64,000 nt of DNA from Trypanosoma brucei (GCA_000002445.1 CP000069.1:128001-192000), one strand, 5' to 3'. Shown: positions 38,155 through 64,000, numbered from the stretch's first letter. A program made the numbers and translations. The notes: a model not told the origin generated them from the sequence alone.

Positions 38155-39319
38155 TATCCTTCATGACATTGATGTATGTTTTGTTGTAAATGGATAATAA
38201 TGTTTATATAATATGTGCAAACTTTTTTTAGATACACTTCATATAGTGTTCTTCTAATACTTTGCTCCCCAACTTTTTGCGCATGCAATATTTCCCTCAT
38301 ATGTTGGGTGTTTAAATATTTTTATGCACAGGGATGCATTTTATTTCTGAAATGGGCACACCATTTTTTGATTGTAATATATGAAAGTCGTTAATTTTCT
38401 GTTTAACGTAGTGAGGGATGTGTGCATCCACGCCACCATTAATGCTTAAATTTTCGTAAATAATATCTTATTTAAATTTAAATTGCCGTCCGTGTGGGCC
38501 GTTGTCAAGTGAGGCGCTCCACCTCTAATGTGTTGTTAGGAGCTGTGTCCTTGCATTTAAAAATGTGTTTGATAATAAGGTGATGCCCATGAAGCGGAGG
38601 CTATAGCGAAGTAAAAGTGACCGCCGGTGCTTATTCCTCGCGTCTACCCTAATCTTTTTTTTTCATTCGGAGATGCTGGCTTGTAAGGTATCTCTTAATC
38701 ACCTTGCTGCATGTAACTATTTGCAATATCTGATACATGTGTATAACTTCCTTTATATTTCTCTATGGTTGCTGAAACTTTCCTCATATTCTCTCGCACA
38801 CTCTCTTTTACTCCTAGACAGTCAAGGAATATGAAACTGAGCAATGTCTGCCGTGATGTTGTGAGTTAAAATTTACAGTTTGAGTGTTAACTGTGACTGT
38901 TAGTGTGCTGTGTTTTTGTTAATGGCAATCCAGTTTATGATACTGTAATGTTCTATCTACACATTTACCCTTATGCCTAGTGATGTTATATGTTTTTGTA
39001 TCGGATACATGAATGATATGTGGGTGTATGGGGGAATGTGTGTTGAACTACTTTCTCGCTGTTATGGTTTGTGTAATGTTATCCACTACAGTAGTTCCCT
39101 TTCCCACGCTCTTACATATACATATGCAGTCTATTAATCTTGTACCAATACTTTGTTATTATGCCCTTTTTGTCCTGTAGTTTGAAAGTTGAATTACGTT
39201 GAGTTACTAGTATCACGGTTACCTCCATGCGTGAATTACATGCTAGAGATGGCGTAGTCACTTACGTAGTGTTTTTCTATGTTACTACAGCTGCTGGCTG
39301 AAGTATAGCTTGCAAATGG
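38155..39319 (+). repeat. T spacer copy 3
   Basis: Near-identical to 26798-27949. Confidence 0.75.
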
Positions 39320-42300
39320 ATTATTATGGGTAAGGGTATGCAACATGTTATACAGTGACAAGATCTCAGCAAAGGTATGTGATCCTATTATTGCAGGTTT
39401 CAACGCATCTATTACCAACGGGAAGTCGCTTCCGTGTGTCAGTGTGGCAGTTGCATATGTTCCGTCTCTGGATGACTTTGGATACGCCATCTGTACAACC
39501 AATTACGGTGATGAGTTTGCTATTATACTGGAATCTGTGGGTGACAAAAATACTCTCAACTTAACCAAATATTTCAATGAAAAGAATGCGTAGTTGATTT
39601 CTTACCTTTCACAGGATTCAGTAGGGTACACAGTTGGAATCCCAATTTATACCTCCTGGAAGCACCACTCGCCGTTGAGATGCTTGCTCTTTTCCGTTAT
39701 GCTATCACTCAGTTACGGTCACACCGACTGGATTTCATGTATTTGAAAGATGTTTCTTATGGTGATGATGAGTATAAGCTTGCTGCGTAGTTGGCAACAC
39801 GGATGAATCGCAAGTTGTTTAGTTGTTATTTTTTTGCATTGAAGAGTCAACTTGATAAGGAATCGGATAACAGGAGCTTCAGTGCGGAGTGTAATAAGGT
39901 TGCCGATACTGGACCTCAGGGAATGATTGTATTTGGTTCTCCAATCCCTGATATGAAGAGATTCCCCATGAAATGATTATATGACCACAGGACAAGAGGC
40001 GAATATTTATTCATACACCCTCTGCACTCCAACACGCCATCAAGAACAAGTGGGCATATAAATTGGGTAGAGACGAGTTTGTGGCTGCTAAGATAATAAT
40101 AACTGGGGCTGACCTAATTACGAAGGGTGACACATACAAAGCTGTCAGGCGTTTCAGAGATGATATGACTATGTTGTTAAAGGTTAATGGTAATAACTAT
40201 AAGCGCACAAGGTGGGATATTAACGAAAATAACTTCACCGAGCAAGACGCTGAAGCTGAGCTGACATTGAACAGATGGGTTGCTGGAGAGGTATTGAAAC
40301 AGGCACTGAGTTGTCACGAATAGCTAACTAGCAGGGGTGTATTTATGAAATCACTGTACAATAAACGTCGTTATCCAATTGATAATATTGTGGTTGGTGA
40401 CTTTGGTGGTGAGTGCCGTAATAAGGCGGGAGAGCGGGGTGTATCGTGTTTACGTAACCAAGGTGGGAGTGTGATGTGCGTGAAGAAGGTGGAAAAGGAT
40501 CTCCATCTGCACCCTATGAAGGAAGCTATATTAACCCTTGGTTCATCTCGCTGTTATCGAGACCTGCCACAGTTGTAGGGCCCATTGAGTGGGGTCATGT
40601 TTAATATAACCGATGACCCAAAGGCACTGCGTACTGCATAGATGGTATACGATGGTGTCCCTCATGTTGTTGGCAAAGGTCAGCTGGGTCACTCTGATAG
40701 TTTCTTTTTACACTGACTATCCTCGAAATCTTACGAAACTTGTGCAACTCTGTATAATGATGTTGAGAAACGAGTTGTAACTGCTGTGCTTGGTGTCGTG
40801 GATAATTCGTTACTACGGACGAAGGGTATGGCATTCATCGATCCTATAATACTCACATCACAACCGAGTAACCCCAGAAGGAATGTGATCCACCTGTTAC
40901 CAACAAATGAGCAGCAGTTATTTATGATAGTTGAGCATATTATACAAAATGGTGCAGGAAGGATGCATTTCATTGTGTGTCGTGGTGGTGATACGAGAGG
41001 AATTAGGAATATGTTGCAAAAACACTTGACAACTTTAACACATCACTAAGCTTCTTTGTTGCGAGTGGTGAAGGTCCTATTTTGAGAGACAAGCTGTCAA
41101 CTGCATGTGAGGTATTGGTTGTAGGTCTTATCCCATATAATATCCCCATAATCCTCTTTCACCCTAACAAACACCGTAATGCGCACGTCTTCGTCCTGTT
41201 CTTCGATGATGCACCAATCCACGGCGAACTCGTGAGTGCCTTCCATGAAGAGCCATTTTCTAACCGCTTGCTATTCGCAACGAATCTGTCACATCGGAGG
41301 GATAAGATCACGGAGTCCAAAACAGTACGTGAGTTCCGCAAGATCGTGCAGAATGAGTCGAAGTGGAAGCCGTTGTCACTACTTGGGTCTGCCATCGCAT
41401 ACGCAATGGGAAGTGTCCTGCAATGTATGGGTCGTTTGGAGACAAGTGTACGAACGAAACTTGACTTGAGGCGAAGCACTGTTGTCAACTGTGGTGCGAT
41501 GCATATTTTTGTATGGTCGATGTCACATGTTCTAAACCCTTTTGTGTCCTCTGCGCTGTCGTCTGCCACACTGTCAGTGACCTATGATGAACCGAGATGG
41601 ATCCAACAGATAACTGAGCAAATTGCCGCTATTGCAGTTGGCTTCGTCGTAATCTTGGTGCCGCTTGTTACGGTTCTTGTGGTTGTTATATTAGCAACAC
41701 ACCGGAATGCTCGTGATAACAATCTTGCACCCAAGGAACAAACTGACCCCGTGACACTAATATTTACTGACATTGAGAGCAGCACTGCGTTGTGGGCTGC
41801 ACACCCTGAACTGATGCCTGTTGCCGTTGCAACACATCACTATTTGATTCGTTCACTGATTGGGAGGTATAAGTGCTACGAAGTCAAAACTGTAGGGGAT
41901 TCGTTCATGATAGCGAGTAAGAGTCCTTTCGCTGCCGTCCAACTCGCACAGGAACTACAGCTGTGTTTCTTGCAGCATGACTGGGGAACAAATGCAGTTG
42001 ATGATTCCTACTGGGAATTTGAGCAGCAGCGTGCGGAGGAGGACGAGAAGTACACACCGCCAACTGCGCGGTTGGACCTCAAAGTGTACAGTCGTTTGTG
42101 GAATGGCCTGCGTGTACGTGTTGGAATTCACACCGGGTTGTGCGATATCCGACACGATGAAGTGACGAAGGGATATGACTACTATGGGCGGACTCCAAAC
42201 ATGGCAGCAAGGACGGAGAGTGTAGCAAATGGTGGTCAGGTGCTGATAACGCATGAGGTTTACATGTCATTTTCAGCTGAGGAGCGTGAGCAAATTGATG

Positions 42301-42809
42301 TCACTGCACTTGGTGATGTTGCACTTCGTGGCGTGAATGATCATGTGGAAATGTACCAGTTGAATGCCGTGCCTGGTCGCAACTTTGCTGCATTACGGCT
42401 GGAACGTGAACTCTTTGATGAAGACGAGGATGGCACGACAACCTCCACCAGCGACCACAGTTCTTCACGTGCGGAGCTGAGTGAATCAGCACAATCGATA
42501 TTGAACTCACTGCAGTCTGTTTTCCGAACTTTTAAAGCAGCGCAACGGGGGAGTCTTCTGGCGTCGCTTTGTGAGCGTTGGCGTGTGCCTCTTCCCCGTG
42601 AAGCTGCATTCGAGTGGGATGACGCCTACTGTGAGGAAGTGGTGCGTCGCATTGCAGTTAAGGTTGGGCGTGTCGCTGACCGTAGCGCTCAAAGTGGAAG
42701 CAGTGAAGCTTCTGTGAGTACTGAAGAGGGCTCAATCATAATTGTTCCATTCGTTGGTTCACATTTCAGAGAAGGCCACTTTGGGTGTTCGCTTCCGTCG
42801 TTACATTAG
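39320..42809 (+). pseudogene. P3: degenerate divergent adenylate cyclase paralog, N-terminal half fragmented, C-terminal TM+cyclase half open
   Basis: Fragment ORFs 39345-39593, 39791-39976, 40063-40323, 40345-40578, 40786-41049 in different frames, each homologous in order to the F ectodomain, then the 575-codon frame 41082-42809. Confidence 0.75.
41082..42809 (+). CDS. TM + cyclase catalytic domain frame of P3 (575 codons from a non-ATG start; first in-frame ATG about 109 codons in)
   Basis: TM IAAIAVGFVVILVPLVTVLVVVIL plus cyclase motifs. The tail is QRGSLLASLCERWRVPLPREAAFEWDDAYCEEVVRRIAVKVG, homologous to but divergent from the F tail. Confidence 0.55.
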   Translation: MRDKLSTACEVLVVGLIPYNIPIILFHPNKHRNAHVFVLFFDDAPIHGELVSAFHEEPFSNRLLFATNLSHRRDKITESKTVREFRKIVQNESKWKPLSLLGSAIAYAMGSVLQCMGRLETSVRTKLDLRRSTVVNCGAMHIFVWSMSHVLNPFVSSALSSATLSVTYDEPRWIQQITEQIAAIAVGFVVILVPLVTVLVVVILATHRNARDNNLAPKEQTDPVTLIFTDIESSTALWAAHPELMPVAVATHHYLIRSLIGRYKCYEVKTVGDSFMIASKSPFAAVQLAQELQLCFLQHDWGTNAVDDSYWEFEQQRAEEDEKYTPPTARLDLKVYSRLWNGLRVRVGIHTGLCDIRHDEVTKGYDYYGRTPNMAARTESVANGGQVLITHEVYMSFSAEEREQIDVTALGDVALRGVNDHVEMYQLNAVPGRNFAALRLERELFDEDEDGTTTSTSDHSSSRAELSESAQSILNSLQSVFRTFKAAQRGSLLASLCERWRVPLPREAAFEWDDAYCEEVVRRIAVKVGRVADRSAQSGSSEASVSTEEGSIIIVPFVGSHFREGHFGCSLPSLH

Positions 42810-45407
42810 TGGTAGTGTTGCACGTCATAAAGCGTACAAATCTCTTAGTTTTACTCGGCGGAAAAGTTAATTAGCATACCGATTGTAGTAGTTGTTAGTG
42901 AATTTTAACGTAGTCTCGGTAGGGTTTGTCTTTTGTATCTATTTTTATCTTTTGCCATCTATTTATTATTACATTTTTTACATTCTATTTTTGGTGGCTG
43001 CTGCCTCTGCATTAAAGCACATACTAATCTTAAGAGGGAACATGCCCTCTGTTAGATTACACATGCGTTGTCTTTCAAGACACTGAATTAACACATGCAT
43101 GTGTTTTGCCGTGTCAGCGCCGGTTGGTTTCTTACTGTTCCAAATCCGACACTTATGGAAGACAGGACGGCTCAACATTTCTTCTAATTTAACCAAAACG
43201 TTTTTGTTCTGTGAGTAATCACAAAATGGGATTAGCTATGTACTTTCCCTAAGGGCTCTCTTTTTTATTTGTGTCCTTGCCATTTGAGGCTTTAAGAAAA
43301 GTAAGGTGAAACATTTCTTTTTCAACACGTCTGTCCTTAAGCGTGCGAGTGCATGACTATTTTTTTTAAACATTCCACCTCTCACGCCCAATCCCGCAGC
43401 CTTTCGGGTACAAAACTGTGTTTCCGTGTGTGTCTGCGTCACGTTTTTCTTTTTGAATCCACTTAATGCTAGCGGTGTCTTTAAATATTTTTTCATAATG
43501 AGTGTTATGTTGCATGTGTGTATGTATGTGTTGGGTGTTATGTGGGCTGTTGTATCTCTCTCTTCGGATATACAACCCTTATCACCCTCTGCATTGATGT
43601 TACATGTTGTTTCACCAGTTGCATGCTTTTTTCCCCTTCACTCATTTGTGTTGCCGTAAGGATTTAAGGTATGCGATTGCCTCCATTCCCTCCAGAGTGT
43701 GATGTCGATGCATGGGCTTAGTTATGCACTGAAACCCGCGTTGCCTCGCAGTATAACAAAGTTCCTTCACCATCACAGTTATTGCAGCTTATACTAATTA
43801 TAGTATTGTGAGGGAGTTTTGTAACACGTTCACTCTGTTAATATTGCTGAGCCTATAATATCCTTCTGTTATTTACAACACTGTTTGGACACCCGAGGGG
43901 AGTGCAGAAATGCCGCTCCTTTATAGGGACAAACCTCATTTATCCGTATTTTGTGGTAATTCAAGACTGAACCCTTGACGTTTTAACTGTGTGATGAGGA
44001 GCTACGACGAGTTGTGGCGGGAGGGAGCGTCTACGTCGCTGCAGTGTGTAACCTCAACTGAGCATTTGGCATAACCTCTACATGCTTCCCTTTACATCAT
44101 GTGTGTTTGCGTGCATGGGCTCTGATTGTTACTTGCGCATATCTGCCGCCCTCACTTGGGGCTTTTCCCCCCATGCAGGAGTGTACGCACTGGCAGCCGC
44201 TTTGGAGTATCAAAAATACTGCTACGTGCTGAAGATATTATTTGGGAAGGGAACAAATGGAGGGAAAGACTGTCGACCTTCAGGGGGAAAGGATAAACTC
44301 ACCTGAATCGCAGCGGAACTCGTGCGGCTGCAGGCATCCAACCTTTTTCCCTCAAGGGCAATTGTTATCCCTGAGCGGGTTGTTTTATTAATTTTCCAGC
44401 CCTGTATGGCCGGAGTGCGTGTGGTCGCGATGTTTATGTAACTCCTTTTGTTACATCACTTTCCTTCTTTTGTAAACCCCCGTAGTCGCCGGACGCCTCG
44501 TGCCGCATGCGGGCCCGATTAATTTTTTGGTTTGGGAATGAGATTGGAGGTACAAACTCTGATGAGGTCCACTGGCTGATCGCTGCTGCGTTGCTTAGAT
44601 GCGTTTTTATTATTCCTTACTTCTTTCCAACGCTACGTGGAGAAGGTGTGGTGACGGTGGCAGCAACTGTTGGAAGTGCGAAAAAGAGGGCTCAATCATT
44701 TCAAAGTGGAAAGGGGCCCATTACCCGGAATTGAAAACTCATCTGATCGCGAACGGCGTTTGGGTTGCGACCAGGAAATGAAATTTGTGTTACGGTCCAA
44801 ATACGAAACTTGTTGGGTGGACCCAAGGAAAGAAATAAAATGGATAAATACATGCTCTCTGCTGCATGAGACCCGGAATATGAGGAAAATGGTGCGAATG
44901 GATGTGGAGGGTGTGTCTAACCGGATGAGTGAGTGACGACGCAACAACACGAAGATGAATGAAGGAAAAGGGAGGAGTGACAATGCATCCCAAAAGGCAG
45001 ATGATTGATGTCATAAGAGGGGACCAAGTGTTTCCGCATGATTGCGGCGTCTGCAAGTAAAGTAGGGTACAAAGGAGAAAAAAAAAGAGAAAGCGGAACT
45101 GGATGAGATTCGGTTCTTCCGTCGCGCATGTTCTTACGCCCTTCTTCCACTGCATGTGCTATGCGACATTCGTGCCCGAGGGGAAACTTTTCCCGTCTGC
45201 AAAGCGCCTTTAAGAAGTATATGAGAGGAACAACCAGCCAAGCAGCCACACAAAAGGCGAAGGACACAACAGAAATTATTAAGAGCCGAGACGCATTAGC
45301 CGAGGTAGACGCTGGCGGAAGCAAAACAACAAACAAGTGACTGCGGCACTGAAATAAGAAACAATCCAAACTCTTGCCCCACATCACACTTAAATACTTC
45401 CTTGCGA
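42810..45407 (+). repeat. S spacer copy 3 (terminal copy; departs from the consensus at 45407 and runs into the B repeat)
   Basis: Identical to 31444-34045 up to ...acttccttgc, after which the U5/F unit is absent and the B repeat follows. Confidence 0.75.
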
Positions 45408-45419
45408 AAAAGAAGAAAA

Positions 45420-45658
45420 GAGGGAAAAACAATGCGCGTAATAACAAATGATAAGTGAGCGCATGTCTTGTGACAATCATGTGGTGGCTGCTGCAGATGG
45501 GGAGCCAACAGCAGAGAACCAAATGAAAGCAAGTATCCTCTACAAAATGGAGGACAGATGAAAAGGGTTATGTGGTTAAGGGGATTCAACAAAATAAACT
45601 AAAAGGGTCAACTATACATGAGCAAATGCAGCCACACAAACACACATGGAGCATGCGA
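45420..45658 (+). repeat. B boundary repeat, second copy
   Basis: Matches 22390-22618. Confidence 0.7.
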
Positions 45659-46110
45659 TGTGAAGTTAACTGTTTGGTTGTGCCTGGTTGAGGCGTACAA
45701 ACAATTTTTTTTGTTTTTCTGAATTTTTGTTCTCTGCTTTTTCTTGCTTGTCTGCGGGTGGAAGCGTAGTGTAGGGGCTGAGAAGCAGCTAAGCCAACAG
45801 CCCCGGTGCGAGATGTGACGCAGAGAAACTGGTAGCACGCCGTTTCATCGTCAGTTATAGAGTAATCCAGGGGAGAAAAAAGCGAAACGCGCCAAGAGCA
45901 CCGCCGAGAAGCAAAGAAAAAAGAAGGAAGGGGAAAACATTCCGCAGGGGTCGATTTCCATTCTTTCGTTTCCTCCCTCATTTCCTCGCTTCTGTCTGAG
46001 TAACCAAAACACGTGGGAGGAAGTTTGCACACCTGTGCGTTTCCTTTCTATCTGTTTTTCTCTTAAAAGAAAAAAAAAACAGGAATACACCTCTTATCCA
46101 AACTCGTTCT

Positions 46111-52657: not shown

Positions 52658-53197
52658 TGTTAGTATTACTTGCTTGTCAGTCTATGGGCCGCGCGTGAAA
52701 GAAAACAGGTTAGGAAGAGTAAGCACAAAACAAGGTGAACAAGGAAGATGATCACATCGCAATTGACCTGCATTGTAGAAACACCGCCCCGTTAAAATAC
52801 GCGGAGAGTGATGAAGATATTGATCTGCTACACGAAATAGAACGCTACAAGGGAAAAGCAAAAACAGAGGAAAACACGATGCGCGGAAGCGGCCTCATTC
52901 ACACGTCCAATGGAGCTCTGAACAGGGTGCGCAATTCCGCAATACCCCTGAGGGAGGGGAAATAAATAGGAATAGAGGAACAAATGGTTTTATAACTGAC
53001 ACTTAATAGGCTCTCACTTAGCATCTTAGAGGAAATGGATGTTCATAAAATCGCTCACATAAAAAAAAGATAAAACGAAAATAAAACGATTAGTGGAAGT
53101 TGTTCTACTAGTTGCGTGTTATGGGCCAAACGAGTATCTACCCGTATCTTGTTATGGCTTATATGAGTAACACTGCACAGCCGGTAGGCCGCACAAG

Positions 53198-54148
53198 TCA
53201 GCACACAATTGCGAGGGAAAAAAAGACGATGAGTAGACACAATTCACCACCTACACAGATCGTAATGTGCGACAAGGAAGTCAATGTCGTCTCCGCCTCT
53301 CCTTTTGGTTTGGGAGTTGCCGAAGGTTGATCTTGAGAATTTGTAGACTCCTCATCTGAATGCAAACTTTCGTTGATTACTGCTAGCTCCTCATTGGCAG
53401 TGGAGTTTCCATTACCTGGAACGGGATGCGATGGCTGTGGAACTGTAACTTCGCAGAGGGCAGCGAAATAAGTTAGTGACTTGTATCCAGGTGCCTTACC
53501 CCCGGGCTTGTTGCCAGAAACTTCGCCGCCATCAAACCAACCGAACCACTTCGTCACGTTAGTGTACCAACCCATCACGTGCAATTGGCCATCCTGAGGA
53601 TAACTTTGCGCAAAAAACGACGGATAACCACCCAATGCGCCTGAACCACTTTTATAAGTGTACGATCCCCGCCAGAATGCAACGCCGTTGCCCTCTATTC
53701 CCGATGCTTCAAACAGACCACTGTTCCATCGGTAGACGCAATTAAGGGAAGTATCGTAGTCTCCTGCTGTGCAACGAATTCCCGCGTCCTGTGCCGCACT
53801 TGCACTGTAAGTGGCATCCCCTCCAAGGTAACTGTAGATAAATGGGCCATCAGCTACACCCAAGTGGTAGGCAGTGAGGCGTTCGTTAGTTGCCTGCGAG
53901 TGGTCAGTGGCCAGCGTCCCGCCGGCTTCACGGCAGATATGCACTGAGTTACTGTAGTCTACAAGGTAATCACCTCCATGCCAAAACTTTCGGTTGGGGA
54001 AGAGAATATACTCCTTGACATAGGCAGTTGGGTACACCTTACCAAATGCGAAGAGATGTGATGAACCTGAAAGACATTGCAGCAGGGCAGTGAAGAGAAC
54101 GACCATCCGTGCGAAGCCGCATGCCGTCATGCTTATCTCAGTGCCCAT
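53198..54148 (-). CDS. secreted/surface glycoprotein, tandem copy 2 (identical to copy 1)
   Basis: Identical 316-aa translation; same repeat unit. Confidence 0.7.
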   Translation of the reverse strand: MGTEISMTACGFARMVVLFTALLQCLSGSSHLFAFGKVYPTAYVKEYILFPNRKFWHGGDYLVDYSNSVHICREAGGTLATDHSQATNERLTAYHLGVADGPFIYSYLGGDATYSASAAQDAGIRCTAGDYDTSLNCVYRWNSGLFEASGIEGNGVAFWRGSYTYKSGSGALGGYPSFFAQSYPQDGQLHVMGWYTNVTKWFGWFDGGEVSGNKPGGKAPGYKSLTYFAALCEVTVPQPSHPVPGNGNSTANEELAVINESLHSDEESTNSQDQPSATPKPKGEAETTLTSLSHITICVGGELCLLIVFFSLAIVC

Positions 54149-54420
54149 TGTTAGTATTACTTGCTTGTCAGTCTATGGGCCGCGCGTGAAAGAAAACAGG
54201 TTAGGAAGAGTAAGCACAAAACAAGGTGAACAAGGAAGATGATCACATCGCAATTGACCTGCATTGTAGAAACACCGCCCCGTTAAAATACGCGGAGAGT
54301 GATGAAGATATTGATCTGCTACACGAAATAGAACGCTACAAGGGAAAACATAGTTGGAAGGTGAGAGTGGCAGTAAATACTAAGAGCATGGAGAAAAAAC
54401 ACATAAAAAAATATAATGTA

Positions 54421-55706
54421 AAGGGAAGCATGTAGAGGTTATGCCAAATGTTCAGTTGAGGTTACACACTGCAGCGACGTAGACGCTCCCTCCCGCCACA
54501 ACTCGTCGTAGCTCCTCATCGCACAGTTAAAACGTCAAGGGTTCAGTCTTGAATTACCACAAAATACGGATAAATGAGGTTTGTCCCTATAAAGGAGCGG
54601 CATTTCTGCACTCCCCTCGAGTGTCCAAACAGTGTTGTAAATAACAGAAGGATATTATAGGCTCAGCAATATTAACAGAGTGAACGTGTTACAAAACTCC
54701 CTCACAATACTATAATTAGTATAAGCTGCAATAACTGTGACTGTGAAGGAACTTTGTTATACTGCGAGGCAACGCGGGTTTCAGCACATAACTAAGCTCA
54801 TGCATCGACATCACACTCTGGAGGGAATGGAGGCAATCACATACCTTAAATCCTTACGGCAACACAAATGAGTGAAGGGAAAGAAAGCATGCAACTGGTG
54901 AAACAACATGTAACATCAGCAATGCAGAGGGTGATAAGGGTTGTATATCCGAAGAGAGAGATACAACAGCCCACATAACACCCAACACATACAAACACAC
55001 ATGCAACATAACACTCATTATGAAAAAATATTTAAAGACATCGCTAGCATTAAGTGGATTCAAAAAGAAAAACGTGACGCAGACACACACGGAAACACAG
55101 TTTTGTACCCGAAAGGCTGCGGGATTGGGCGTGAGAGGTGGAATGTTTAAAAAAAATAGTCATGCACTCGCACGCTTAAGGACAGACGTGTTGAAAAAGA
55201 AATGTTTCACCTTATTTTTCTTAAAGCCTCAAATGGCAAGGACAAAAATAAAAAAGAGAGCCCTTAGGGAAAGTACATAGCTAATCCCATTTTGTGATTA
55301 CTCACAGAACAAAAACGTTTTGGTTAAATTAGAAGAAATGTTGAGCCGTCCTGTCTTCCATAAGGGTCGGATTTGGAACAGTAAGAAACCAACCGGCGCT
55401 GACACGGCAAAACACATGCATGTGTTAATTCAGTGTCTTGAAAGACAACGCATGTGTAATCTAACAGAGGGCATGTTCCCTCTTAAGATTAGTATGTGCT
55501 TTAATGCAGAGGCAGCAGCCACCAAAAATAGAATGTAAAAAATGTAATAATAAATAGATGGCAAAAGATAAAAATAGATACAAAAGACAAACCCTACCGA
55601 GACTACGTTAAAATTCACTAACAACTACTACAATCGGTATGCTAATTAACTTTTCCGCCGAGTAAAACTAAGAGATTTGTACGCTTTATGACGTGCAACA
55701 GTACCA
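54421..55706 (-). repeat. S spacer, truncated fourth copy (distal ~1.3 kb only), fused at 54421 to the surface-protein tandem repeat
   Basis: Matches 3440-4735 (aagggaagcatgta... onward). The sequence below 54421 belongs to the 1491-bp repeat flank instead of the rest of S. Confidence 0.75.
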
Positions 55707-57434
55707 CTAATGTAACGACGGAAGCGAACACCCAAAGTGGCCTTCTCTGAAATGTGAACCAACGAATGGAACAATTATGATTGAGCCCTCTTCAGTACTC
55801 ACAGAAGCTTCACTGCTTCCACTTTGAGCGCTACGGTCAGCGACACGCCCAACCTTAACTGCAATGCGACGCACCACTTCCTCACAGTAGGCGTCATCCC
55901 ACTCGAATGCAGCTTCACGGGGAAGAGGCACACGCCAACGCTCACAAAGCGACGCCAGAAGATTCCCCCGTTGCGCTGCTTTAAAAGTTCGGAAAACAGA
56001 CTGCAGTGAGTTCAATATCGATTGTGCTGATTCACTCAGCTCCGCACGTGAAGAACTGTGGTCGCTGGTGGAGGTTGTCGTGCCATCCTCGTCTTCATCA
56101 AAGAATTCGCGATCCAGCCGTAATGCAGCAAAGTTGCGGCCAGGCACGGCATTCAACTGGTACATTTCCACATGATCATTCACGCCACGAAGTGCAACAT
56201 CACCAAGTGCAGTGACATCAATTTGCTCACGCTCCTCAGCTGACAGTGACATGTAAACCTCATGCGTTATCAGCACCTGACCACCATTTGCTACACTCTC
56301 TGTCCTTGCTGCCATGTTTGGAGTGCGCCCATAGTAGTCATATCCCTTCGTCACTTCATCGTGTCGGATGTCGCACAACCCGGTGTGGATTCCAACACGT
56401 ACACGCAGGCCATTCCACAAACGACTGTACACTTTAGGGTCCAACCGCGCAGTTGGCGGTGTGTACTTCTCGTCCTCCTCCGCACGCTGCTGCTCAAATT
56501 CCCAGTAGGACTCATCAATCGCATTTGTTCCCCAGTCATGCTGCAAGAAACACAGCTGTAGTTCCTGTGCGAGTTGGACGGCAGCGAAAGGACTCTTACT
56601 CGCTATCATGAACGAATCCCCTACAGTCTTGACTTCGTAGCACTTATACCTCCCAATCAGTGAACGAATCAAATAGTGATGTGTTGCAACGGCAACAGGC
56701 ATCAGATCAGGGTGTGCAGCCCACAACGCAGTGCTGCTCTCAATGTCAGTAGATATTAGTGTCACGGGGTCAGTTGGTTCCTTGGGTGCAAGATTGTTAT
56801 CACGAGCATTCCGGTGTGTTGCTAATATAACAACCACAAGAACCGTAACAAGCGGCACCAACATTACGACGAAGCCAACTGCAATAGCGGCAATTTGCTC
56901 AGTTATCTGTTGGATCCATCTCGGTTCATCATAGGTCACTGACAGTGTGGCAGACGACAGCGCAGAGGACACAAAAGGGTTTAGAACATGTGACATCGAC
57001 CATACAAAAATATGCATCGCACCACAGTTGACAACAGTGCTTCGCCTCAAGTCAAGTTTCGTTCGTACACTTGTCTCCAAACGACCCATACATTGCAGGA
57101 CACTTCCCATTGCGTAAGCGATGGCAGACCCACGTAGTGACAATGGCTTCCACTTCGACTCATTCTGCACGATCTTGCGGAACTCACGTACTGTTTTGGA
57201 CTCCGTGATCTTATCCCTCCGATGTGACAGATTCGTTGCGAATAGCAAGGGGTTAGAAAATGGCTCTTCATGGAAGGCATTCACGAGTTCGCCGTGGATT
57301 GGTGCATCATCGAAGAACAGGACGAAGACGTGCGCATTACGGTGCTTGTTAGGGTGAAAGAGGATTATGGAGATATTATATGGGATAAGACCTACAACCA
57401 ATACCTCACATGCAGTTGACAGCTTGTCTCTCAA
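55707..57434 (-). CDS. TM + cyclase catalytic domain frame of P4 (575 codons from a non-ATG start)
   Basis: Cyclase motifs present. Has the unusual substitution ISTDIESS where other copies have IFTDIESS. Confidence 0.5.
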   Translation of the reverse strand: MRDKLSTACEVLVVGLIPYNISIILFHPNKHRNAHVFVLFFDDAPIHGELVNAFHEEPFSNPLLFATNLSHRRDKITESKTVREFRKIVQNESKWKPLSLRGSAIAYAMGSVLQCMGRLETSVRTKLDLRRSTVVNCGAMHIFVWSMSHVLNPFVSSALSSATLSVTYDEPRWIQQITEQIAAIAVGFVVMLVPLVTVLVVVILATHRNARDNNLAPKEPTDPVTLISTDIESSTALWAAHPDLMPVAVATHHYLIRSLIGRYKCYEVKTVGDSFMIASKSPFAAVQLAQELQLCFLQHDWGTNAIDESYWEFEQQRAEEDEKYTPPTARLDPKVYSRLWNGLRVRVGIHTGLCDIRHDEVTKGYDYYGRTPNMAARTESVANGGQVLITHEVYMSLSAEEREQIDVTALGDVALRGVNDHVEMYQLNAVPGRNFAALRLDREFFDEDEDGTTTSTSDHSSSRAELSESAQSILNSLQSVFRTFKAAQRGNLLASLCERWRVPLPREAAFEWDDAYCEEVVRRIAVKVGRVADRSAQSGSSEASVSTEEGSIIIVPFVGSHFREGHFGCSLPSLH

Positions 57435-59200
57435 AATAGGACCTTCACCACTCGCAACAAAGAAGCTTAGTGATGTGTTAAAGTTGTCAAGTGTTTTTGC
57501 AACATATTCCTAATTCCTCTCGTATCACCACCACGACACACAATGAAATGCATCCTTCCTGCACCATTTTGTATAATATGCTCAACTATCATAAATAACT
57601 GCTGCTCATTTGTTGGTAACAGGTGGATCACATTCCTTCTGGGGTTACTCGGTTGTGATGTGAGTATTATAGGATCGATGAATGCCATACCCTTCGTCCG
57701 TAGTAACGAATTATCCACGACACCAAGCACAGCAGTTACAACTCGTTTCTCAACATCATTATACAGAGTTGCAGAAGCTTCGTAAAATTTCGAGGATAGT
57801 CAGTGTAAAAAGAAACTATCAGAGACCCAGTTGACCTTTGCCAACAACATGAGGGACACCATCGTATACCATCTATGCAGTACGCAGTGCCTTTGGGTCA
57901 TCGGTTATATTAAACATGACCCCACTCAATGGGCCCTACAACTGTGGCAGGTCTCGATAACAGCGAGATGAACCAAGGGTTAATATAGCTTCCTTCATAG
58001 GGTGCAGATGGAGATCCTTTTCCACCTTCTTCACGCACATCACACTCCCACCTTGGTTACGTAAACACGATACACCCCGCTCTCCCGCCTTATTACGGCA
58101 CTCACCACCAAAGTCACCAACCACAATATTATCAATTGGATAACGACGTTTATTGTACAGTGATTTCATAAATACACCCCTGCTAGTTAGCTATTCGTGA
58201 CAACTCAGTGCCTGTTTCAATACCTCCCCAGCAACCCATCTGTTCAATGTCAGCTCAGCTTCAGCGTCTTGCTCGGTGAAGTTATTTTCGTTAATATCCC
58301 ACCTTGTGCGCTTATAGTTATTACCATTAACCTTTAACAACATAGTCATATCATCTCTGAAACGCCTGACAGCTTTGTATGTGTCACCCTTCGTAATTAG
58401 GTCAGCCCCAGTTATTATTATCTTAGCAGCCACAAACTCGTCTCTACCCAATTTATATGCCCACTTGTTCTTGATGGCGTGTTGGAGTGCAGAGGGTGTA
58501 TGAATAAATATTCGCCTCTTGTCCTGTGGTCATATAATCATTTCATGGGGAATCTCTTCATATCAGGGATTGGAGAACCAAATACAATCATTCCCTGAGG
58601 TCCAGTATCGGCAACCTTATTACACTCCGCACTGAAGCTCCTGTTATCCGATTCCTTATCAAGTTGACTCTTCAATGCAAAAAAAAAAAAATAACAACTA
58701 AACAACTTGCGATTCATCCGTGTTGCCAACTACGCAGCAAGCTTATACTCATCATCACCATAAGAAACATCTTTCAAATACATGAAATCCAGTCGGTGTG
58801 ACCGTAACTGAGTGATAGCATAACGGAAAAGAGCAAGCATCTCAACGGCGAGTGGTGCTTCCAGGAGGTATAAATTGGGATTCCAACTGTGTACCCTACT
58901 GAATCCTGTGAAAGGTAAGAAATCAACTACGCATTCTTTTCATTGAAATATTTGGTTAAGTTGAGAGTATTTTTGTCACCCACAGATTCCAGTATAATAG
59001 CAAACTCATCACCGTAATTGGTTGTACAGATGGCGTATCCAAAGTCATCCAGAGACGGAACATATGCAACTGCCACACTGACACACGGAAGCGACTTCCC
59101 GTTGGTAATAGATGCGTTGAAACCTGCAATAATAGGATCACATACCTTTGCTGAGATCTTGTCACTGTATAACATGTTGCATACCCTTACCCATAATAAT
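55707..59200 (-). pseudogene. P4: degenerate divergent adenylate cyclase paralog (N-terminal half fragmented, C-terminal half open); copy homology ends abruptly at 59297
   Basis: Same ordered fragment ORFs as the other P copies (58927-59175, 58538-58729, 58191-58451, 57936-58169, 57467-57730) plus the 575-codon frame 55707-57434. Confidence 0.75.
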
Positions 59201-59297
59201 CCATTTGCAAGCTATACTTCAGCCAGCAGCTGTAGTAACATAGAAAAACACTACGTAAGTGACTACGCCATCTCTAGCATGTAATTCACGCATGGGG

Positions 59298-60780
59298 TGA
59301 CTGTAGGCGTGAGTCGCACGATGAACGGCGCGTGTCGATTCCCTGAATCCATTTCTTGGTAAAATTTAGGGGCTGCATTTGGATGCAGTGCGATCACACG
59401 AAGTAGCTGCGTTTCCCGTTGAACCAAAGCACATAACTTACATCGACAATCCTTTGTAGCAGTGCGGAGGCCCGCGCTCGGCCATGCCGACCCGCTGAAG
59501 TCGATCTTCGTCGGGGGGGGGGGAGGGGAACGGTTTTTTATTTGCCCTCCACGCTCAACTTTGACAACGTCAAAGGGCGTAGTTGGAGGTGTCGGGACAC
59601 GCCTGGCTTCGCAGAGCGCTTGTTTGCCTTCCAATTGGATACTGAGGACATCCTTGGTGGTGGGGAAGTGCCTCAACTAAGGGCGGAGTGAACGGTTTCT
59701 TGACATTGCTTTTTTCTCATTTTCACGGGGATGCCGCGCCATTCAATCCGTTTGGAGAACCATGTAGATCCTTTCCTCGTGGGGACGCCAACCGGGCAGG
59801 GCGCACGTGCCGGTGCCTCAGTCGCCTTCCTCTGCGGGTTGGCTAATTTAGTAGATGCCCCTTGGGGTTTTGGGAGGTGGTGCTGCGGTGCCACTGGGCG
59901 TGGTGACGCCTTGATCACCCTTGAGGATTGGGAGGGGCAAGTGGTGTGGCGATGGCCGCTTACCCGCGCCGTGGCTGACATTCTTTTAGCTTTCGGGGTT
60001 GCGTTAGCTGCCGCGCGGTGCCAAAAAAGTGCTAAGGGGAGGGATAATGTGGCCTTCAACCTCGCTCGGGGCGTTGGGCGCGTACAGCGCGTTTGGAAGA
60101 AGTGGCTTCCGCCGTCTGGGGTGCCGGTGGCGTGTGCCTCGTGCGGTTGGTTTTTCTCTTCAGGAGATGGGACTGATCAATGCTTGGGGGTTAGAACTTC
60201 TGTCTCCTTGTGTTCGCTTGTGGGGAGCTAGTGGGGCGCAGGCCGCCCGCTAGCAGGAGGTAGCAAAGGTGCGTGGAAGTTCCGGCCACTTTAAAGGATA
60301 TGAAACTGAAGGGGAGATATCGCCTCCAAGGCACCCTAGGGAGTCGCGGTTTAGCAGCACTGTCCCTTGGGGGCTGCTGCCGCATGATCGTGTTGCCGGA
60401 GCCCGCTATTTCGTATCTTCGGGCGCCAGCTGGGGGGGGGGGGGGGCGGCGGGTTTCTCCACTTGGAGACCCCCACCGTGCTCGGGCGCCGTCATTTAAT
60501 CGGCGGTCCCTCGGGAAAGAAAGGGACCTGTATGGGCATTCCGGGTGGGGGGATTTTTTTTTTGTGTGCGCAGGCGCGCTTCAATTGCGTAGTATCAATA
60601 GAAGGATTGAACATCCCCCCTGAAACGAAGTATCAATCGCGTGCTGACACTCGATTCTGTGTTCGTGATACCGGTGTTTGTGCTGAGCGTTGCTTGTACT
60701 GCTTGACTGTGTGGGCCGCACACTGCGGTATGCTTGAGAGGGAAAGAAAAAGAAAGGATATCCTCCACGACGGTTAGAGA
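59298..60780. other. GC-rich island with long G homopolymer runs (G11 at 59513-59523, G15 at 60432-60446, G6+T10 at 60547-60563) and overlapping low-complexity ORFs on both strands; probably non-coding
   Basis: Composition and homopolymers read directly. ORFs 59673-60059(-) and 59731-60231(+) overlap each other, are Ala/Gly/Arg/Pro-rich, and lack recognisable motifs. Confidence 0.5.
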
Positions 60781-62611
60781 CTATATGTCAAGGATAAAAG
60801 GAAAAGGGGCAGATATAAAGAGGTATTCAGTTATGCAGTGTGTGTATGTGTGGATCTGTGGTTGCGGGATACTCCACACTTCTTTTGTTTTTTTTATTAC
60901 GAGTGAACACGTTGCTGTGCACGGTGAACGTCCCTCCCACGACCGAAGGATTTTTTAATTCTGATAATGCGGATATCCGTAAAGTTCCGTCCTTTTCTTT
61001 GTGTTACAAGGGGTCGTGTGTCTTTCACTCATGCAGTTTGATTTTATTTTCGTCGACTCCTGGAATTATCTGTGTTATTTATTTTAATTCCGTTCGTGTG
61101 ATTCCGATATACCTCTTTTGGTTGTTTCCTATTAGGTGGTCGGCTACAATGTTAACTTTTCGCTGATGTTTGTGAGTCTTCTGTGCACTTTTCCTATTGG
61201 CCTTTGCAAATGGGTGTTGATCTTCATAGTGCATAGACGGTTTGCGAGGATGTTGGGACCATGCAATCACTTTGGCGGTGCGTCCGTTCTTTTTCTTTTT
61301 GGAGAAAAATATTGCGTACATTTATTCACTTAATTTTGTCGGTGGCCTCTGCTATGTTTTTTGATTGTGCTTGTTTTTCTAGGAGAATCCGCACCTTCTT
61401 TAATTTTGAGGTTGTATAAGCAGTTGTTTTGTAGTATAAGTAAGGAGACATATGCTACAATGTTTTTGTAAACATTATGTTCGGGTACATACGAAATATT
61501 TTACTGCTTCCTTTTTCCGCTGAACTTGGGGTGAAGTTCCTACGTTTTTATTCTGTTTCATTAAGGTAACCCAAGTTCCTTTTCTTTCGTTGCCTTCTCC
61601 CTCTGGACACAACACGGGCGGTCGAATATGACTGCTTATATCAAGGCATCGCGACGGCGTTAGAAAACAAAGGTGACGTGTGTAATAACTTTCGCTTGGC
61701 CGGAGGGTCATGTTTCTGCCTCTTTGTTTTTTGCGTCGTGAAATGGTGACCTGGTTTTTGTGTACCGAGCATGTACTTTTTCATATTATCATATTCCACG
61801 AAGATTTCAAGTATTGTCACATACTTTGCCCGTGGTAGGTGCTACCCAGGCCATGCTTCCAGAGGTAATAATGATAGTTTCAGCGAAGTGTGTTGTCGAT
61901 GATGTTATCGGCGGTTTTGCATAATCGTTTGTCGTGTTTTATCTGTTGTGGCAACCTCGTTAATATACAGTTAGACGTTAATTTACATATTTTGCGGTTC
62001 GGTCATAAGCCATAAGTTTTCTAGAAGTGGGTGTGTTTGTTACCCCTTTTACACTCACTGTTAGAAGATGTTTTACGTGTCTACTACTCGGCTATTGTAT
62101 TTGGCCGCAATATATTCGGGGAGACGGCTTTGATATGGATCTGACTCGTCATGTGTGTATCTGCATGCGTGCATAAAGTGTAGAGGAGGAAAGTGCAGGT
62201 GCAACATCATTACCTCGCGTTAATAGAAGACGAAGTGAGTATGTGATTTCAGCGGGCGCCAAGTTGATCTTCGGCTCTGCCGGTGACGAGGATAGCTGCA
62301 GGGGCCTTGAAGGAGAACTTAACACAGTCGTGGTAAGTAAGTACGAGAGCAAAGTATGTACAAAACTAGGTTGCCACAGGGGAGAAAGGTGTACACCGCT
62401 GGAGATGGTGTTGGCATGTGCATATGTGCATGTACTGAAGCATTGTCCATATTGTCGGCAATTAAATAATTCTTCCCTCCGACAGATTTAAACACCAAGT
62501 GAAGTATACAGTTTTTCACTGCTGCAACTACACATACGAATTTAGTTTTTTTCTTCGAAGGGACTAACCATACAAGCATTCGAATTTTCAGTAAGAGCGC
62601 AAACTTGTGAA

Positions 62612-62636
62612 TAGGGTTAGGGTTAGGGTTAGGGTA
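62612..62636 (+). repeat. interstitial telomere-like repeat (TTAGGG)x3.5
   Basis: tagggttagggttagggttagggta read directly. It sits 25 nt upstream of the peptidase ATG, downstream of a polypyrimidine tract (62533-62548). Confidence 0.9.
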
Positions 62637-62661
62637 CACATAAAAAATAAGTAAATACTCC

Positions 62662-64000
62662 GATGCAGGTTGATTGGGGTGCAGTTCATAAATTCATTAC
62701 TGACGAATGGGACAAGACCCTCGTCCCCACCATTTCTGCATACATCGAGGTTCCGAACCAAAGCCCCCACTACGACCAGGAATGGGCAACCAATGGGTTA
62801 ATGCAAAAGGCTATGGATATCATTATTGAGTGGGTCAAAAAACAGCCCATCAAGGGTATGAAATACGAGCTTTTCGAGGAGAAAGGATTAACGCCTTTCC
62901 TCATTGTGGAGATTGAAGGAACTGAGCCATGTGCCAACACACTAATGATGTACGGCCATATGGACAAACAACCCCCTCTTCTTCCGTGGGAGGAGGGACT
63001 CCACCCATATAAGCCAGTGTATCGGGATGGCAGATTATATGGTCGTGGAGGAGCTGACGATGGTTATGCCGTGTTTTCAGCTCTGACCGCAATGGCGGCT
63101 GTGCAAAAGCAAGGCATTCCACACGGGAAAGTCGTTGTTATCATTGAGGCCAGTGAGGAATCTGGGAGTATGCACCTCCCTTTTTACCTCGAGAAATGCA
63201 GGGACCGCATCGGCAACGTCGATCTTCTTATTTGTTTGGACAGTGGGGCGATGAGCTACGATCAACTTTGGCTGACGACAGCTCTACGAGGAGTATGTGG
63301 TGGCATGCTTACAGTGGAAACAATGAAGGAAGGCATGCACAGTGGCCTATCCGGTGGCGTTGTTCCCGATTCCTTTCGTATTGCCCGTATGCTCCTCGAA
63401 CGTATTGAAGATACAAATACCGGTGAAGTAAAAATTATCGAAGCAAACTGTGACATCCCTCAGCATGTTGTGGAGAGTATGCAGTCAATAAGGGCAATTG
63501 CATACAAGGAGCAGTTTCCCCTTCTGTCCGGCGTGTCTACTGAAGTTGATGACACTGTGGAGCTAGCCCTGAGGAATTCTTGGAAACCGTGCTTGACAGT
63601 GGTGGGTGATAACCTCCCTGATGCGGCAACGGCTGGGAATGTCAATCGTGCCAAGACCGTGCTGCGGCTCTCCCTCCGTGTCCCCCCTATTGTGGACGCG
63701 ACGAAGGCCACACTAGCGATGAAAAGAATACTCGAGGCTGATTCCCCATATAACGCCAAAGTAACTTTCACTCCGGATGATGCAGGTGACGGCTGTGCGA
63801 CACCACGGCTAAAGCCATGGCTTGTGGAGGCGCTCAATAAGGGTAGTGAGATGGCTTTTGGTAAGGGGTTCGCATCACAGGGCATGGGTGGGTCCATTCC
63901 TTTTATTGCAATGTTGCTGAAAAAATTTCCGGATGCGCAATTTGTGGTCACCGGCGTTTTGGGACCGAAGAGCAACGCACACGGGCCGAACGAGTTTCTA
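62662..64000 (+). CDS. M20-family metallopeptidase (CNDP/Dug1-like dipeptidase type), 3'-partial: 446 codons, no stop before window end
   Basis: Open frame from ATG 62662 to the window end, hand-translated. It has the M20 motifs YGHMD (metal-binding His/Asp), YGRGGADDGY (GRGxxDDKG-like) and EASEESGS (catalytic/metal Glu pair), plus HGPNEF near the end. It is not in the ORF track because it is incomplete. Confidence 0.8.

What the first reader, a model, noticed from the sequence alone, without database searches (positions are those of the whole stretch)
54350..54440. Recombination junction: a truncated S spacer of the cyclase array is fused directly to the surface-protein tandem repeat
In three copies the S spacer continues for another ~1.3 kb into U5 and a full-length cyclase. 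In the fourth copy S homology stops dead at 54421 (aagggaagcatgta...) and within ~70 bp the sequence becomes the third unit of the 1491-bp repeat (homology ends near 54348). So a P-T/S module (P4) has been joined to an unrelated gene array at a sharp breakpoint. P4 also loses homology to the other copies abruptly at its other end (59297). P4 therefore looks like an excised or transposed module inserted between the GC-rich island and the surface-protein array.
Basis: seen in the sequence. Interest (0 to 1): 0.5.

Follow-up and report, generated by a model that had tools for sequence, protein, structure and literature searches.

The report
Edge of a duplicated cyclase pseudogene
This is the real, old and fixed edge of a 4.9-kb extra copy of a dead adenylate-cyclase gene on Trypanosoma brucei chromosome 6, lying just upstream of the IGP34 genes and kept similar to its array copies by gene conversion; it is an ordinary feature of this genome's gene-family regions.

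Summary
The window is T. brucei brucei TREU927 chromosome 6: a GRESAG4 adenylate-cyclase array, Tb927.6.350 and IGP34 genes.

**Observation: confirmed.**
- A fourth, partial copy (P4, 54413-59298, minus strand) matches the three array units at 97.4-98.7%.
- It loses all homology at both ends.
- The 1491-bp IGP34 repeat ends exactly at 54348.
- 64 unique, pyrimidine-rich bases lie between the two edges.

**Not an assembly artefact.** Gap-free sequence of T. b. gambiense DAL972 and T. b. equiperdum IVM-t1 is colinear across both junctions.

**What P4 is.**
- It is a whole cyclase pseudogene plus 1.29 kb of 3' flank.
- Its 5' edge falls 2 nt before the ancestral start codon.
- Its 3' edge fades over about 16-30 nt of imperfect T/G-rich similarity.
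- It has no target-site duplication, terminal repeats or poly(A), and every array unit still holds its copy. It was therefore copied, not excised.
- P4 of TREU927 is nearer to TREU927 array copies than to its own orthologues, with significant identical tracts. Ectopic gene conversion is ongoing.

**The IGP34 repeat edge is a separate event.** Copy number is 2 in TREU927 and 1 in the other two assemblies, while the junction stays the same.

Which copy was the donor is unresolved. Interest is low.

The parts
54349..54412 (-). 64-nt unique filler between the two repeat edges. It is 73% pyrimidine and 48% T on the minus strand. It is probably part of the polypyrimidine tract and splice-acceptor region of the first IGP34 gene (inferred).
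   Evidence: It is unique in the window. Its pyrimidine content is in the top 2.5% of 64-nt windows, and AG dinucleotides lie 233, 189, 172 and 169 nt before the IGP34 ATG. It is conserved in T. b. gambiense and T. b. equiperdum.
54413..59298 (-). P4: the 4886-bp fourth copy of the P module, consisting of a GRESAG4 cyclase pseudogene plus its 3' flank.
   Evidence: It is 97.4, 98.3 and 98.7% identical to copies A, B and C.
55707..59293 (-). Pseudo-cyclase within P4. The ancestral ATG is at 59293-59291. The N-terminal ~640 codons are riddled with stops and frameshifts. A C-terminal open frame (55707-57434, 575 aa) carries the catalytic domain.
   Evidence: tblastn against the full-length cyclase gives 3-4 frame-shifted HSPs with stops in every copy. 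Pfam finds Guanylate_cyc at 8.8e-43. The distance from the ATG to the VxVxxMxYS motif is 103 nt here and 105 nt in the intact cyclase.
54413..55706 (-). S1: 1294 nt of 3' flank shared with the array copies. In the array it continues as S2; here it stops.
54078..54348 (-). 271-bp head of the IGP34 repeat unit: 200-nt 5' flank plus the first 71 nt of the CDS. It is present three times (54078-54348, 52587-52857, 51096-51366).
53198..54148 (-). IGP34 gene 1 (316 aa). An identical gene 2 lies at 51707-52657.
   Evidence: Pfam DUF5075 at 4e-73. It is 100% identical to XP_845161 and XP_845162 of TREU927. The published IGP34 qPCR primers match both copies exactly.
59299..62662 (.). Unique flank upstream of P4 (the 'GC-rich island'). 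It is C-rich on the minus strand and lies between the oppositely oriented P4 and M20 peptidase genes. It contains (TTAGGG)3 at 62617-62634.
   Evidence: It shows no homology to array spacer T, no cyclase remnant and no Rfam or tRNA hit.
39221..44100 (+). Array copy C of the module, the closest relative of P4 in TREU927. Copies B (27853-32735, plus strand) and A (3434-8319, minus strand) are equivalent.
44101..45415 (+). S2: the 1.3-kb continuation of the spacer that exists only in the array copies (also at 32736-34040 and 2121-3433).

Best explanation
P4 is a dispersed, inverted, gene-sized duplicate of the GRESAG4 pseudogene that sits in every unit of the neighbouring cyclase array. It runs from the start codon to 1.29 kb past the stop codon.

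**Shown**
- Both edges are sharp, and the flanks are unrelated to the array.
- The junctions predate the split of T. b. brucei, T. b. gambiense and T. b. equiperdum.
- The copy was already a pseudogene, or shares its lesions with the array copies through conversion.
- It still exchanges sequence with the array copies by ectopic gene conversion. This is why identity is 97-99% inside the module and absent outside it.

**Inferred**
- The tract was laid down by recombination between paralogous cyclase genes.
- At the 5' end, homology simply ends at the ATG.
- At the 3' end, copying ran on into the donor's 3' flank and was resolved in a short, imperfect T/G-rich microhomology just upstream of IGP34. 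This resembles the RAD51-dependent one-sided MMEJ gene conversion described in T. brucei.

The nearby end of the IGP34 tandem unit is a separate boundary, arising from unequal exchange between 271-bp repeats. Which locus was the donor is not resolved.
For: - **Edges and identities:**
- **No homology beyond the edges:**
- **Same junctions elsewhere:** present in gap-free DAL972 and IVM-t1 sequence.
- **Paralogues closer than orthologues:** P4 of TREU927 is 98.3-98.9% identical to TREU927 copies B and C, but only 97.1-97.6% to its orthologues.
- **Conversion tract:** P4 is identical to copy C across 38 consecutive polymorphic sites (959 bp), starting 14 bp from the 5' edge; permutation p=0.0025. 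Mosaic site patterns include an equiperdum array copy.
- **Shared lesions:** stops and frameshifts occur in all six copies.
- **Start codon:** the ATG lies 2 nt inside the edge and has cyclase-like spacing to the first conserved motif.
- **3'-side similarity:** 10/16 to 17/30 matches just outside the edge, p=0.003 to 0.0001, with none comparable on the 5' side over the first 11-20 nt.
- **Known mechanism:** T. brucei repairs breaks by HR and MMEJ, using 5-20 bp microhomologies that tolerate mismatches, and shows one-sided MMEJ gene conversion (PMC3045614).
- **Known family behaviour:** gene conversion in GRESAG4 arrays has been documented (PMC1855330).
- **IGP copy number varies while the junction is constant:**
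Against: - No empty site was found, so insertion, donor direction and mechanism are all inferred.
- A conversion that starts by homologous recombination should leave some diverged homology upstream of the 5' edge. Only 'CC' is shared there, although similarity over the outer 30 nt is marginal (p=0.006-0.04).
- The 3' microhomology lies in T-rich, low-complexity sequence, and it is weaker in the T. b. gambiense copy when aligned without gaps.
- Part of the paralogue-versus-orthologue contrast could reflect the generally high divergence of non-coding DNA here. The unique flank is also only 96.7-97.5% identical between subspecies.
- The two comparison assemblies had their contigs ordered against TREU927, although the junctions lie inside contigs.
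Confidence: 0.6

Rival explanations
1. P4 is the remnant of a larger inverted copy of the array unit, comparable to copy A on the other side of the array. Microhomology-mediated deletions trimmed it on both sides, so both edges would be deletion junctions rather than insertion or conversion junctions.
For: The locus is broadly palindromic. Copy A is inverted relative to B and C with a 9-kb spacer, and P4 is inverted relative to C with a 10.3-kb spacer. MMEJ deletions are the common end-joining outcome in T. brucei. The array's own tandem junction lies in a short microhomology.
Against: No remnant of S2, of spacer T or of a full-length cyclase exists in either flank. A deletion edge landing 2 nt from the start codon would be a coincidence.
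Confidence: 0.15
2. P4 is the original P-type cyclase locus. The copies inside the array units derive from it: a copy was inserted between spacer T and S2 of an ancestral cyclase-only unit, and the unit was then amplified.
For: In the array the module is bracketed by a 7/8 direct repeat: CATGCGTG at its start and CATGTGTG just after its end. All three units carry the module, as expected if insertion preceded amplification.
Against: The 7/8 repeat was noticed post hoc and is short. The array context has a better polypyrimidine tract plus AG about 50 nt upstream of the ATG than the P4 context does, which suggests the array is the native setting. No cyclase unit with T joined directly to S2 was available for comparison.
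Confidence: 0.2
3. Mobile-element-mediated transposition, or a chimeric assembly.
For: Sharp edges on both sides.
Against: There is no target-site duplication, terminal inverted repeat or poly(A) tail, and no spliced-leader remnant was seen when reading the 5' flank by eye. No transposase or reverse-transcriptase domain was found in the ORFs scanned. The module is retained in all array units. The same junctions appear in two other assemblies.
Confidence: 0.03

Closest known systems
One-sided MMEJ-based ectopic gene conversion in T. brucei (Glover, Jun & Horn 2011, PMC3045614)
   Same: A segment is copied from an ectopic paralogous template. One end is set by homology and the other is resolved in a 5-20 bp microhomology that tolerates mismatches. 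The same organism lacks detectable NHEJ.
   Different: The experimental tracts were 28-1084 bp, whereas this one is 4.9 kb. Here the homology-side junction shows no residual diverged homology upstream. RAD51 dependence and an initiating break cannot be tested from sequence.
Concerted evolution and gene conversion in T. brucei tandem gene arrays, including GRESAG4 arrays (Jackson 2007, PMC1855330)
   Same: Paralogous cyclase copies are homogenised by gene conversion, give mosaic phylogenetic signal, and lose homology in their flanks.
   Different: P4 is not in the tandem array. It is an inverted orphan copy 10 kb away, in the neighbouring and oppositely transcribed gene cluster, and it is a pseudogene.
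VSG cassette duplication (duplicative transposition of silent VSG genes; from general knowledge, not tested here)
   Same: A gene-sized cassette with defined upstream and downstream limits is copied into another locus, and pseudogenes can act as donors.
   Different: There are no 70-bp repeats and no conserved 3' element at the edges. The event is an ancient fixed one, not a programmed switch, and there is no expression-site context.
Segmental duplication by replication template switching (FoSTeS/MMBIR; from general knowledge)
   Same: It produces a nearby inverted partial duplicate with junctions of little or no homology.
   Different: There is no direct evidence for a replication-based origin, and the 5' edge coinciding with the start codon is not predicted by this mechanism.

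Membership tests
GRESAG4/ESAG4 receptor-type adenylate cyclase (as a pseudogene) | Class III cyclase catalytic domain plus a periplasmic-binding-protein-like ectodomain | tested here: met
   Pfam finds Guanylate_cyc at 8.8e-43 and Peripla_BP_A-cyclase at 5.5e-31 in the 575-aa frame. tblastn collinearity with the 1275-aa cyclase runs from about aa 51-166 to aa 1239.
GRESAG4/ESAG4 receptor-type adenylate cyclase (as a pseudogene) | An intact full-length reading frame | tested here: not met
   There are three to four frame changes and multiple in-frame stops in the N-terminal ~640 codons of all six copies. No protein with the exact 575-aa sequence is on record, and no close homologue turned up; the best hit was 51-65% identical.
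IGP34 invariant glycoprotein subfamily (the neighbouring repeat) | IGP C-type-lectin-like domain and identity to the published IGP34 genes | tested here: met
   DUF5075 at 4.2e-73. The IGP34 qRT-PCR primers from PMC4497807 match both copies with no mismatch.
Transposable-element insertion (DNA transposon, or ingi/RIME-type retroposon or retrocopy) | Target-site duplication flanking the insert | tested here: not met
   The 40-nt outer flanks share no k-mer of 5 nt or longer.
Transposable-element insertion (DNA transposon, or ingi/RIME-type retroposon or retrocopy) | Terminal inverted repeats, or a 3' poly(A) tail with a 5' spliced-leader remnant | tested here: not met
   There is no inverted k-mer of 6 nt or longer at the ends. 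The 3' edge is followed by a T-run on the coding strand, not an A-run. The 5' flank shows no spliced-leader sequence; this was read by eye and compared with the spliced leader recalled from memory.
Segmental duplicate homogenised by ectopic gene conversion | Paralogues within a genome are more alike than orthologues between genomes, with mosaic tracts longer than chance | tested here: met
   Within-genome identity is 98.3-98.9% against 97.1-97.6% between orthologues. The longest identical tract spans 38 polymorphic sites, p=0.0025; other pairs give p=0.0005-0.03. Block patterns are shown.
One-sided MMEJ gene conversion | Imperfect 5-20 bp microhomology between donor and recipient at one junction | tested here: met
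   At the 3' edge, matches are 10/16 (p=0.003) in TREU927 and 11/16 and 17/30 (p=0.0003 and 0.0001) in T. b. equiperdum. The sequence is T-rich, so this is suggestive rather than proof.
One-sided MMEJ gene conversion | Homologous recombination at the other junction, and RAD51 dependence | not testable with these tools
   The 5' edge coincides with the start codon, but there is no residual homology upstream of it. Testing RAD51 dependence needs genetics.
Assembly chimera | The junction is absent from independent assemblies or reads | tested here: not met
   DAL972 (L001 174-10761) and IVM-t1 (L002 1-11294) align colinearly across 53388-64000 and 52587-63940 with no Ns. The contigs were de novo but were ordered against TREU927. 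Raw reads were not available.

The most novel reading that the evidence does not exclude
The P-type pseudogene copies (P4 plus the three array copies) could form a conversion reservoir for the cyclase family, somewhat like the VSG pseudogene archive. In this reading a cassette with fixed limits (the start codon and a T/G-rich patch) exchanges sequence among its own copies. It also exchanges sequence with the full-length cyclases, through the 720-bp catalytic-domain patch that is 93-97% identical in nucleotides. A further possibility is that the retained 3' flank now supplies RNA-processing signals for the stumpy-induced IGP34 gene downstream.
Probability: 0.07. Interest if true: 0.5.

Novelty: new member of a known kind. 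Interest (0 to 1): 0.15.

Why it matters
It matters little beyond this locus. It gives a base-pair-resolved natural example of how T. brucei shuffles gene-sized pieces of a multigene family between neighbouring, oppositely transcribed gene clusters. It also shows that a dead, orphan copy can stay in sequence exchange with its array for longer than the Trypanozoon subspecies have been separate.

For annotation:
- The sharp edges are biology, not misassembly.
- The neighbouring repeat encodes IGP34, not a demonstrated surface protein.
- High identity between these copies must not be used to date the duplication.

Tried and rejected
1. **Exact-protein look-ups.** Look-ups of the window's IGP34 and C2H2 proteins, and of two ORFs spanning the junctions, found nothing on record in the indexed assemblies. 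No read-level contigs across the junctions were obtained.
2. **Outgroup empty-site test via the M20 peptidase.** The T. vivax and T. theileri M20 loci share no neighbour with the T. brucei chromosome 6 locus on either side, so they are uninformative. My initial idea of a synteny break exactly at M20 is not supported.
3. **Search for an intact P-type cyclase.** It gave no help on donor direction.
4. **Sensitive search for decayed homology beyond the edges.** None was found.
5. **Gapped 9/11 microhomology at the 5' edge.** I first read one from the alignment, but it does not hold without a gap (4-5/11, p>0.1), so it was dropped.
6. **Simple inversion model.** If P4 were the first unit of an ancestral array split by an inversion at the S1/S2 boundary, an orphan S2 should lie upstream of unit B. 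None exists.
7. **Rfam, tRNA and tandem-repeat scans.** All were empty.
8. **12-mer shared by the filler and the IGP 3' flank.** It is low-complexity and not colinear.

Full report
**Identity of the window**

- The 285-aa C2H2 ORF (46486-47343, minus strand) is exactly Tb927.6.350 of T. brucei brucei TREU927.
- The two 316-aa ORFs (53198-54148 and 51707-52657, minus strand) are exactly XP_845161 and XP_845162 of the 1,618,915-bp chromosome 6 record.
- Those two ORFs carry the IGP C-type-lectin domain (DUF5075, 4e-73). The published IGP34 qRT-PCR primers match both copies perfectly (PMC4497807).
- That paper reports IGP40 and IGP48 as ER-localised and could not localise IGP34. 'Surface protein' is therefore not established.
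- The 1275-1280-aa ORFs are receptor-type adenylate cyclases (GRESAG4), with two periplasmic-binding-like domains and a class III catalytic domain.

**Architecture (self-BLAST)**

- An 11.37-kb unit is present twice in tandem on the plus strand: B at 22671-34050 and C at 34041-45415.
- It is present once inverted: A at 1-13570.
- Each unit holds a full-length cyclase (G), a 1.05-kb spacer (T), a second very divergent cyclase (P) and a 2.6-kb spacer (S).
- tblastn shows that P is a nearly full-length cyclase pseudogene. It has 3-4 frame changes and many stops in the first ~640 codons, plus an open C-terminal frame of about 575-600 codons.
- A fourth, partial copy is P4 at 54413-59298 on the minus strand. 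It is 97.4, 98.3 and 98.7% identical to A, B and C.
- P4 comprises the P pseudogene plus the first 1294 nt of S.
- By gene orientation, P4, both IGP34 genes and Tb927.6.350 are all on the minus strand.
- An M20 peptidase starts at 62663 on the plus strand. P4 is thus the first gene-like element of the minus-strand cluster.

**Checking the observation**

- Alignments confirm the sharp edges.
- The IGP repeat (51096-54348, period 1491, 99.9% identical) ends exactly at 54348.
- Uninterrupted identity of P4 to the array starts at 54416 (BLAST edge 54413) and ends at 59295 (BLAST edge 59298).
- The 64 nt between the repeat edges (54349-54412) are unique in the window.
- A word-7 BLAST finds nothing shared between the P4 flanks and array spacers T or S2.
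- There is no cyclase remnant in 59299-62662.
- Small corrections: S leads on to another cyclase only in copies A and B, because after C the array ends at 45415. The 'third unit' of the IGP repeat is, on the coding strand, the 5' flank plus the first 71 nt of the first IGP34 gene.

**Artefact test**

- Loci from T. b. gambiense DAL972 (L001, FN554969.1) and T. b. equiperdum IVM-t1 (L002, CM010677.1) were recovered through IGP34 cluster members.
- Both align colinearly, without Ns, across both P4 junctions: L001 174-10761 to window 64000-53388, and L002 1-11294 to window 63940-52587.
- They are 2-3% diverged from TREU927 at the sequence level.
- Both carry the same junction sequences.
- IVM-t1 contigs were assembled de novo from MiSeq plus low-coverage PacBio, and only contig order used TREU927 (PMC6395869).
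- The junctions are therefore real and older than the split of these subspecies.
- Both other assemblies have only one IGP34 unit plus the 271-bp stub, against two units in TREU927, while the junction is unchanged.
- The repeat edge at 54348 is thus a separate boundary. It is best explained by unequal exchange between the 271-bp repeats. Its position 64 nt from the P4 edge is proximity, not a direct fusion.

**Anatomy of the edges**

- *5' edge, coding strand.* The shared sequence starts CC|ATGCGTGAA…. The frame from this ATG reads MRELHARDGVVTYVVFFYVTTAAG*, which has a hydrophobic stretch of the kind seen in signal peptides (by eye).
- The first conserved cyclase motif (VRVCNMLYS in P, VKVLSMMYS in G) begins 103 nt after this ATG in P and 105 nt after the start codon in G.
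- The module therefore starts 2 nt before the ancestral start codon.
- Ungapped similarity just outside this edge is not significant over the first 11-20 nt in TREU927: 4/11 and 7/20.
- *3' edge.* Similarity decays rather than stopping. It is 10/16 (p=0.003) in TREU927 and 11/16 and 17/30 (p=0.0003 and 0.0001) in equiperdum, within a T/G-rich patch.
- The filler is 73% pyrimidine on the coding strand, in the top 2.5% of local windows.
- AG dinucleotides lie 233, 189, 172 and 169 nt upstream of the IGP34 ATG. This fits the trans-splicing signal of IGP34 gene 1, which is an inference.
- There is no target-site duplication, no terminal inverted repeat and no poly(A) tail. A spliced-leader remnant was also not seen, judged by eye against the leader sequence recalled from memory.

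**Ongoing exchange between copies**

- Over the whole module, P4 of TREU927 is closer to TREU927 copies C and B (98.9% and 98.3%) than to its positional orthologues in gambiense and equiperdum (97.6% and 97.1%).
- The gambiense P4 is closest to TREU927 copy A, at 98.2%.
- In a GENECONV-style permutation test, P4 and C are identical across 38 consecutive polymorphic sites (959 bp), starting 14 bp from the 5' edge (p=0.0025). Several other pairs also have significant tracts.
- Site patterns are visibly mosaic, including against an equiperdum array copy.
- This is ectopic gene conversion, as already documented for GRESAG4 arrays (PMC1855330).
- It explains the contrast of near-identity inside the module and no identity outside it. 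It also means that identity cannot be used to date the duplication.
- Caveat: the unique non-coding flank is also 2.5-3.3% diverged between subspecies. The mosaic tracts, not the average identities, are the stronger evidence.

**Mechanism**

- T. brucei repairs breaks by homologous recombination and MMEJ. MMEJ uses 5-20 bp microhomologies with mismatches tolerated, and NHEJ has not been detected.
- It also shows RAD51-dependent 'one-sided' gene conversion, with homology at one end and microhomology at the other (PMC3045614).
- The P4 edges fit this pattern. The 5' edge lies where homology between cyclase paralogues would naturally end, at the start codon. The 3' edge lies in an imperfect microhomology patch.
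- This is an inference. The tract is longer than the experimental ones, and no diverged homology is visible upstream of the ATG.
- Donor direction is unresolved:
  - The array context has a better polypyrimidine tract plus AG about 50 nt upstream of the ATG, which favours array to P4.
  - The module in the array is bracketed by a 7/8 direct repeat, CATGCGTG and CATGTGTG, which weakly favours P4 to array.
- Excision is excluded, because all units keep the module.
- A larger inverted copy eroded by deletions cannot be excluded, but it has left no remnants.

**What did not work**

- Exact-sequence look-ups for junction-spanning ORFs returned nothing.
- The outgroup M20 loci (T. vivax, T. theileri) share no neighbours with this locus on either side, so they gave no empty-site test.
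- The search for an intact P-type cyclase gave only homologues at 51-65% identity.

**Verdict**

The feature is a real, ancient recombination junction at the edge of a duplicated GRESAG4 pseudogene cassette. It is not an excised or mobile element, and it is not fused to the IGP34 repeat in any mechanistic sense. It is an ordinary example of segmental duplication plus gene conversion in a trypanosome multigene-family region, so interest is low.

Noticed in passing
window 62617-62634 (+), 28 nt upstream of the M20 peptidase ATG at 62663: An interstitial telomere repeat, (TTAGGG)3, sits directly upstream of the M20 gene. It is conserved in T. b. gambiense (3 units), and in T. b. equiperdum and two Logan read assemblies (2 units each). 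It could mark an old chromosome-end healing or fusion point, or it could be a short chance or regulatory element.
   Followed up: partly
window 59299-60650: The 'GC-rich island' is C-rich on the minus strand, with C11 (~59520) and C16 (~60440) homopolymers. The only long ORF scanned (59731-60231) has no Pfam domain, and there is no Rfam family or tRNA. It lies between the oppositely oriented P4 and M20 genes, so it may be a divergent strand-switch or transcription-start region.
   Followed up: partly
window 56080-56813; also 5129-5839, 30340-31061 and 41703-42424, versus 9815-10548, 25634-26367 and 37003-37736: A ~720-bp catalytic-domain patch is 93-97% identical in nucleotides between the P pseudogenes and the full-length cyclases. 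The rest of the C-terminal half is only ~27-55% identical in protein. Patch identity differs by strain: gambiense P4 is 97.4% identical to G_C of TREU927, against 93.3% for TREU927 P4. This points to gene conversion between pseudogene and functional cyclases.
   Followed up: partly
window 51096-51366 and 51096-54348; L001 9801-11601; L002 9539-11294: IGP34 copy number differs: two genes plus a 271-bp stub in TREU927, and one gene plus the stub in the gambiense and equiperdum assemblies. The stub (5' flank plus the first 71 nt of the CDS) ends abruptly at 51096, which is another sharp breakpoint. Tandem-repeat collapse in the other assemblies is not excluded.
   Followed up: partly
window 22404-22626 and 45437-45659; junction at 34041-34050: A 223-bp element (98.7% identical) brackets the plus-strand cyclase array just outside both ends. 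The tandem B/C junction lies in a short GCA(A/G)(A/G)AAAGAA-like microhomology.
   Followed up: no
window 13571-22618: A 9-kb stretch between the inverted cyclase copies A and B has no stop-free frame longer than 142 codons. Genes diverge from it on both sides, so it is probably another strand-switch region.
   Followed up: no
L002 4602-9487 (T. b. equiperdum P4): The equiperdum copy has many extra frame changes in the otherwise open catalytic-domain frame, with five consecutive short HSPs in different frames. This looks like homopolymer indel error in the hybrid PacBio/MiSeq assembly rather than biology.
   Followed up: no
L003 (T. vivax) and L004 (T. theileri) versus L005 (T. b. equiperdum): The chromosome 6 M20 peptidase of T. 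brucei shares no flanking genes, on either side within 10 kb, with the M20 loci of T. vivax and T. theileri. Either a paralogue is being compared or this M20 itself lies in a lineage-specific region.
   Followed up: partly
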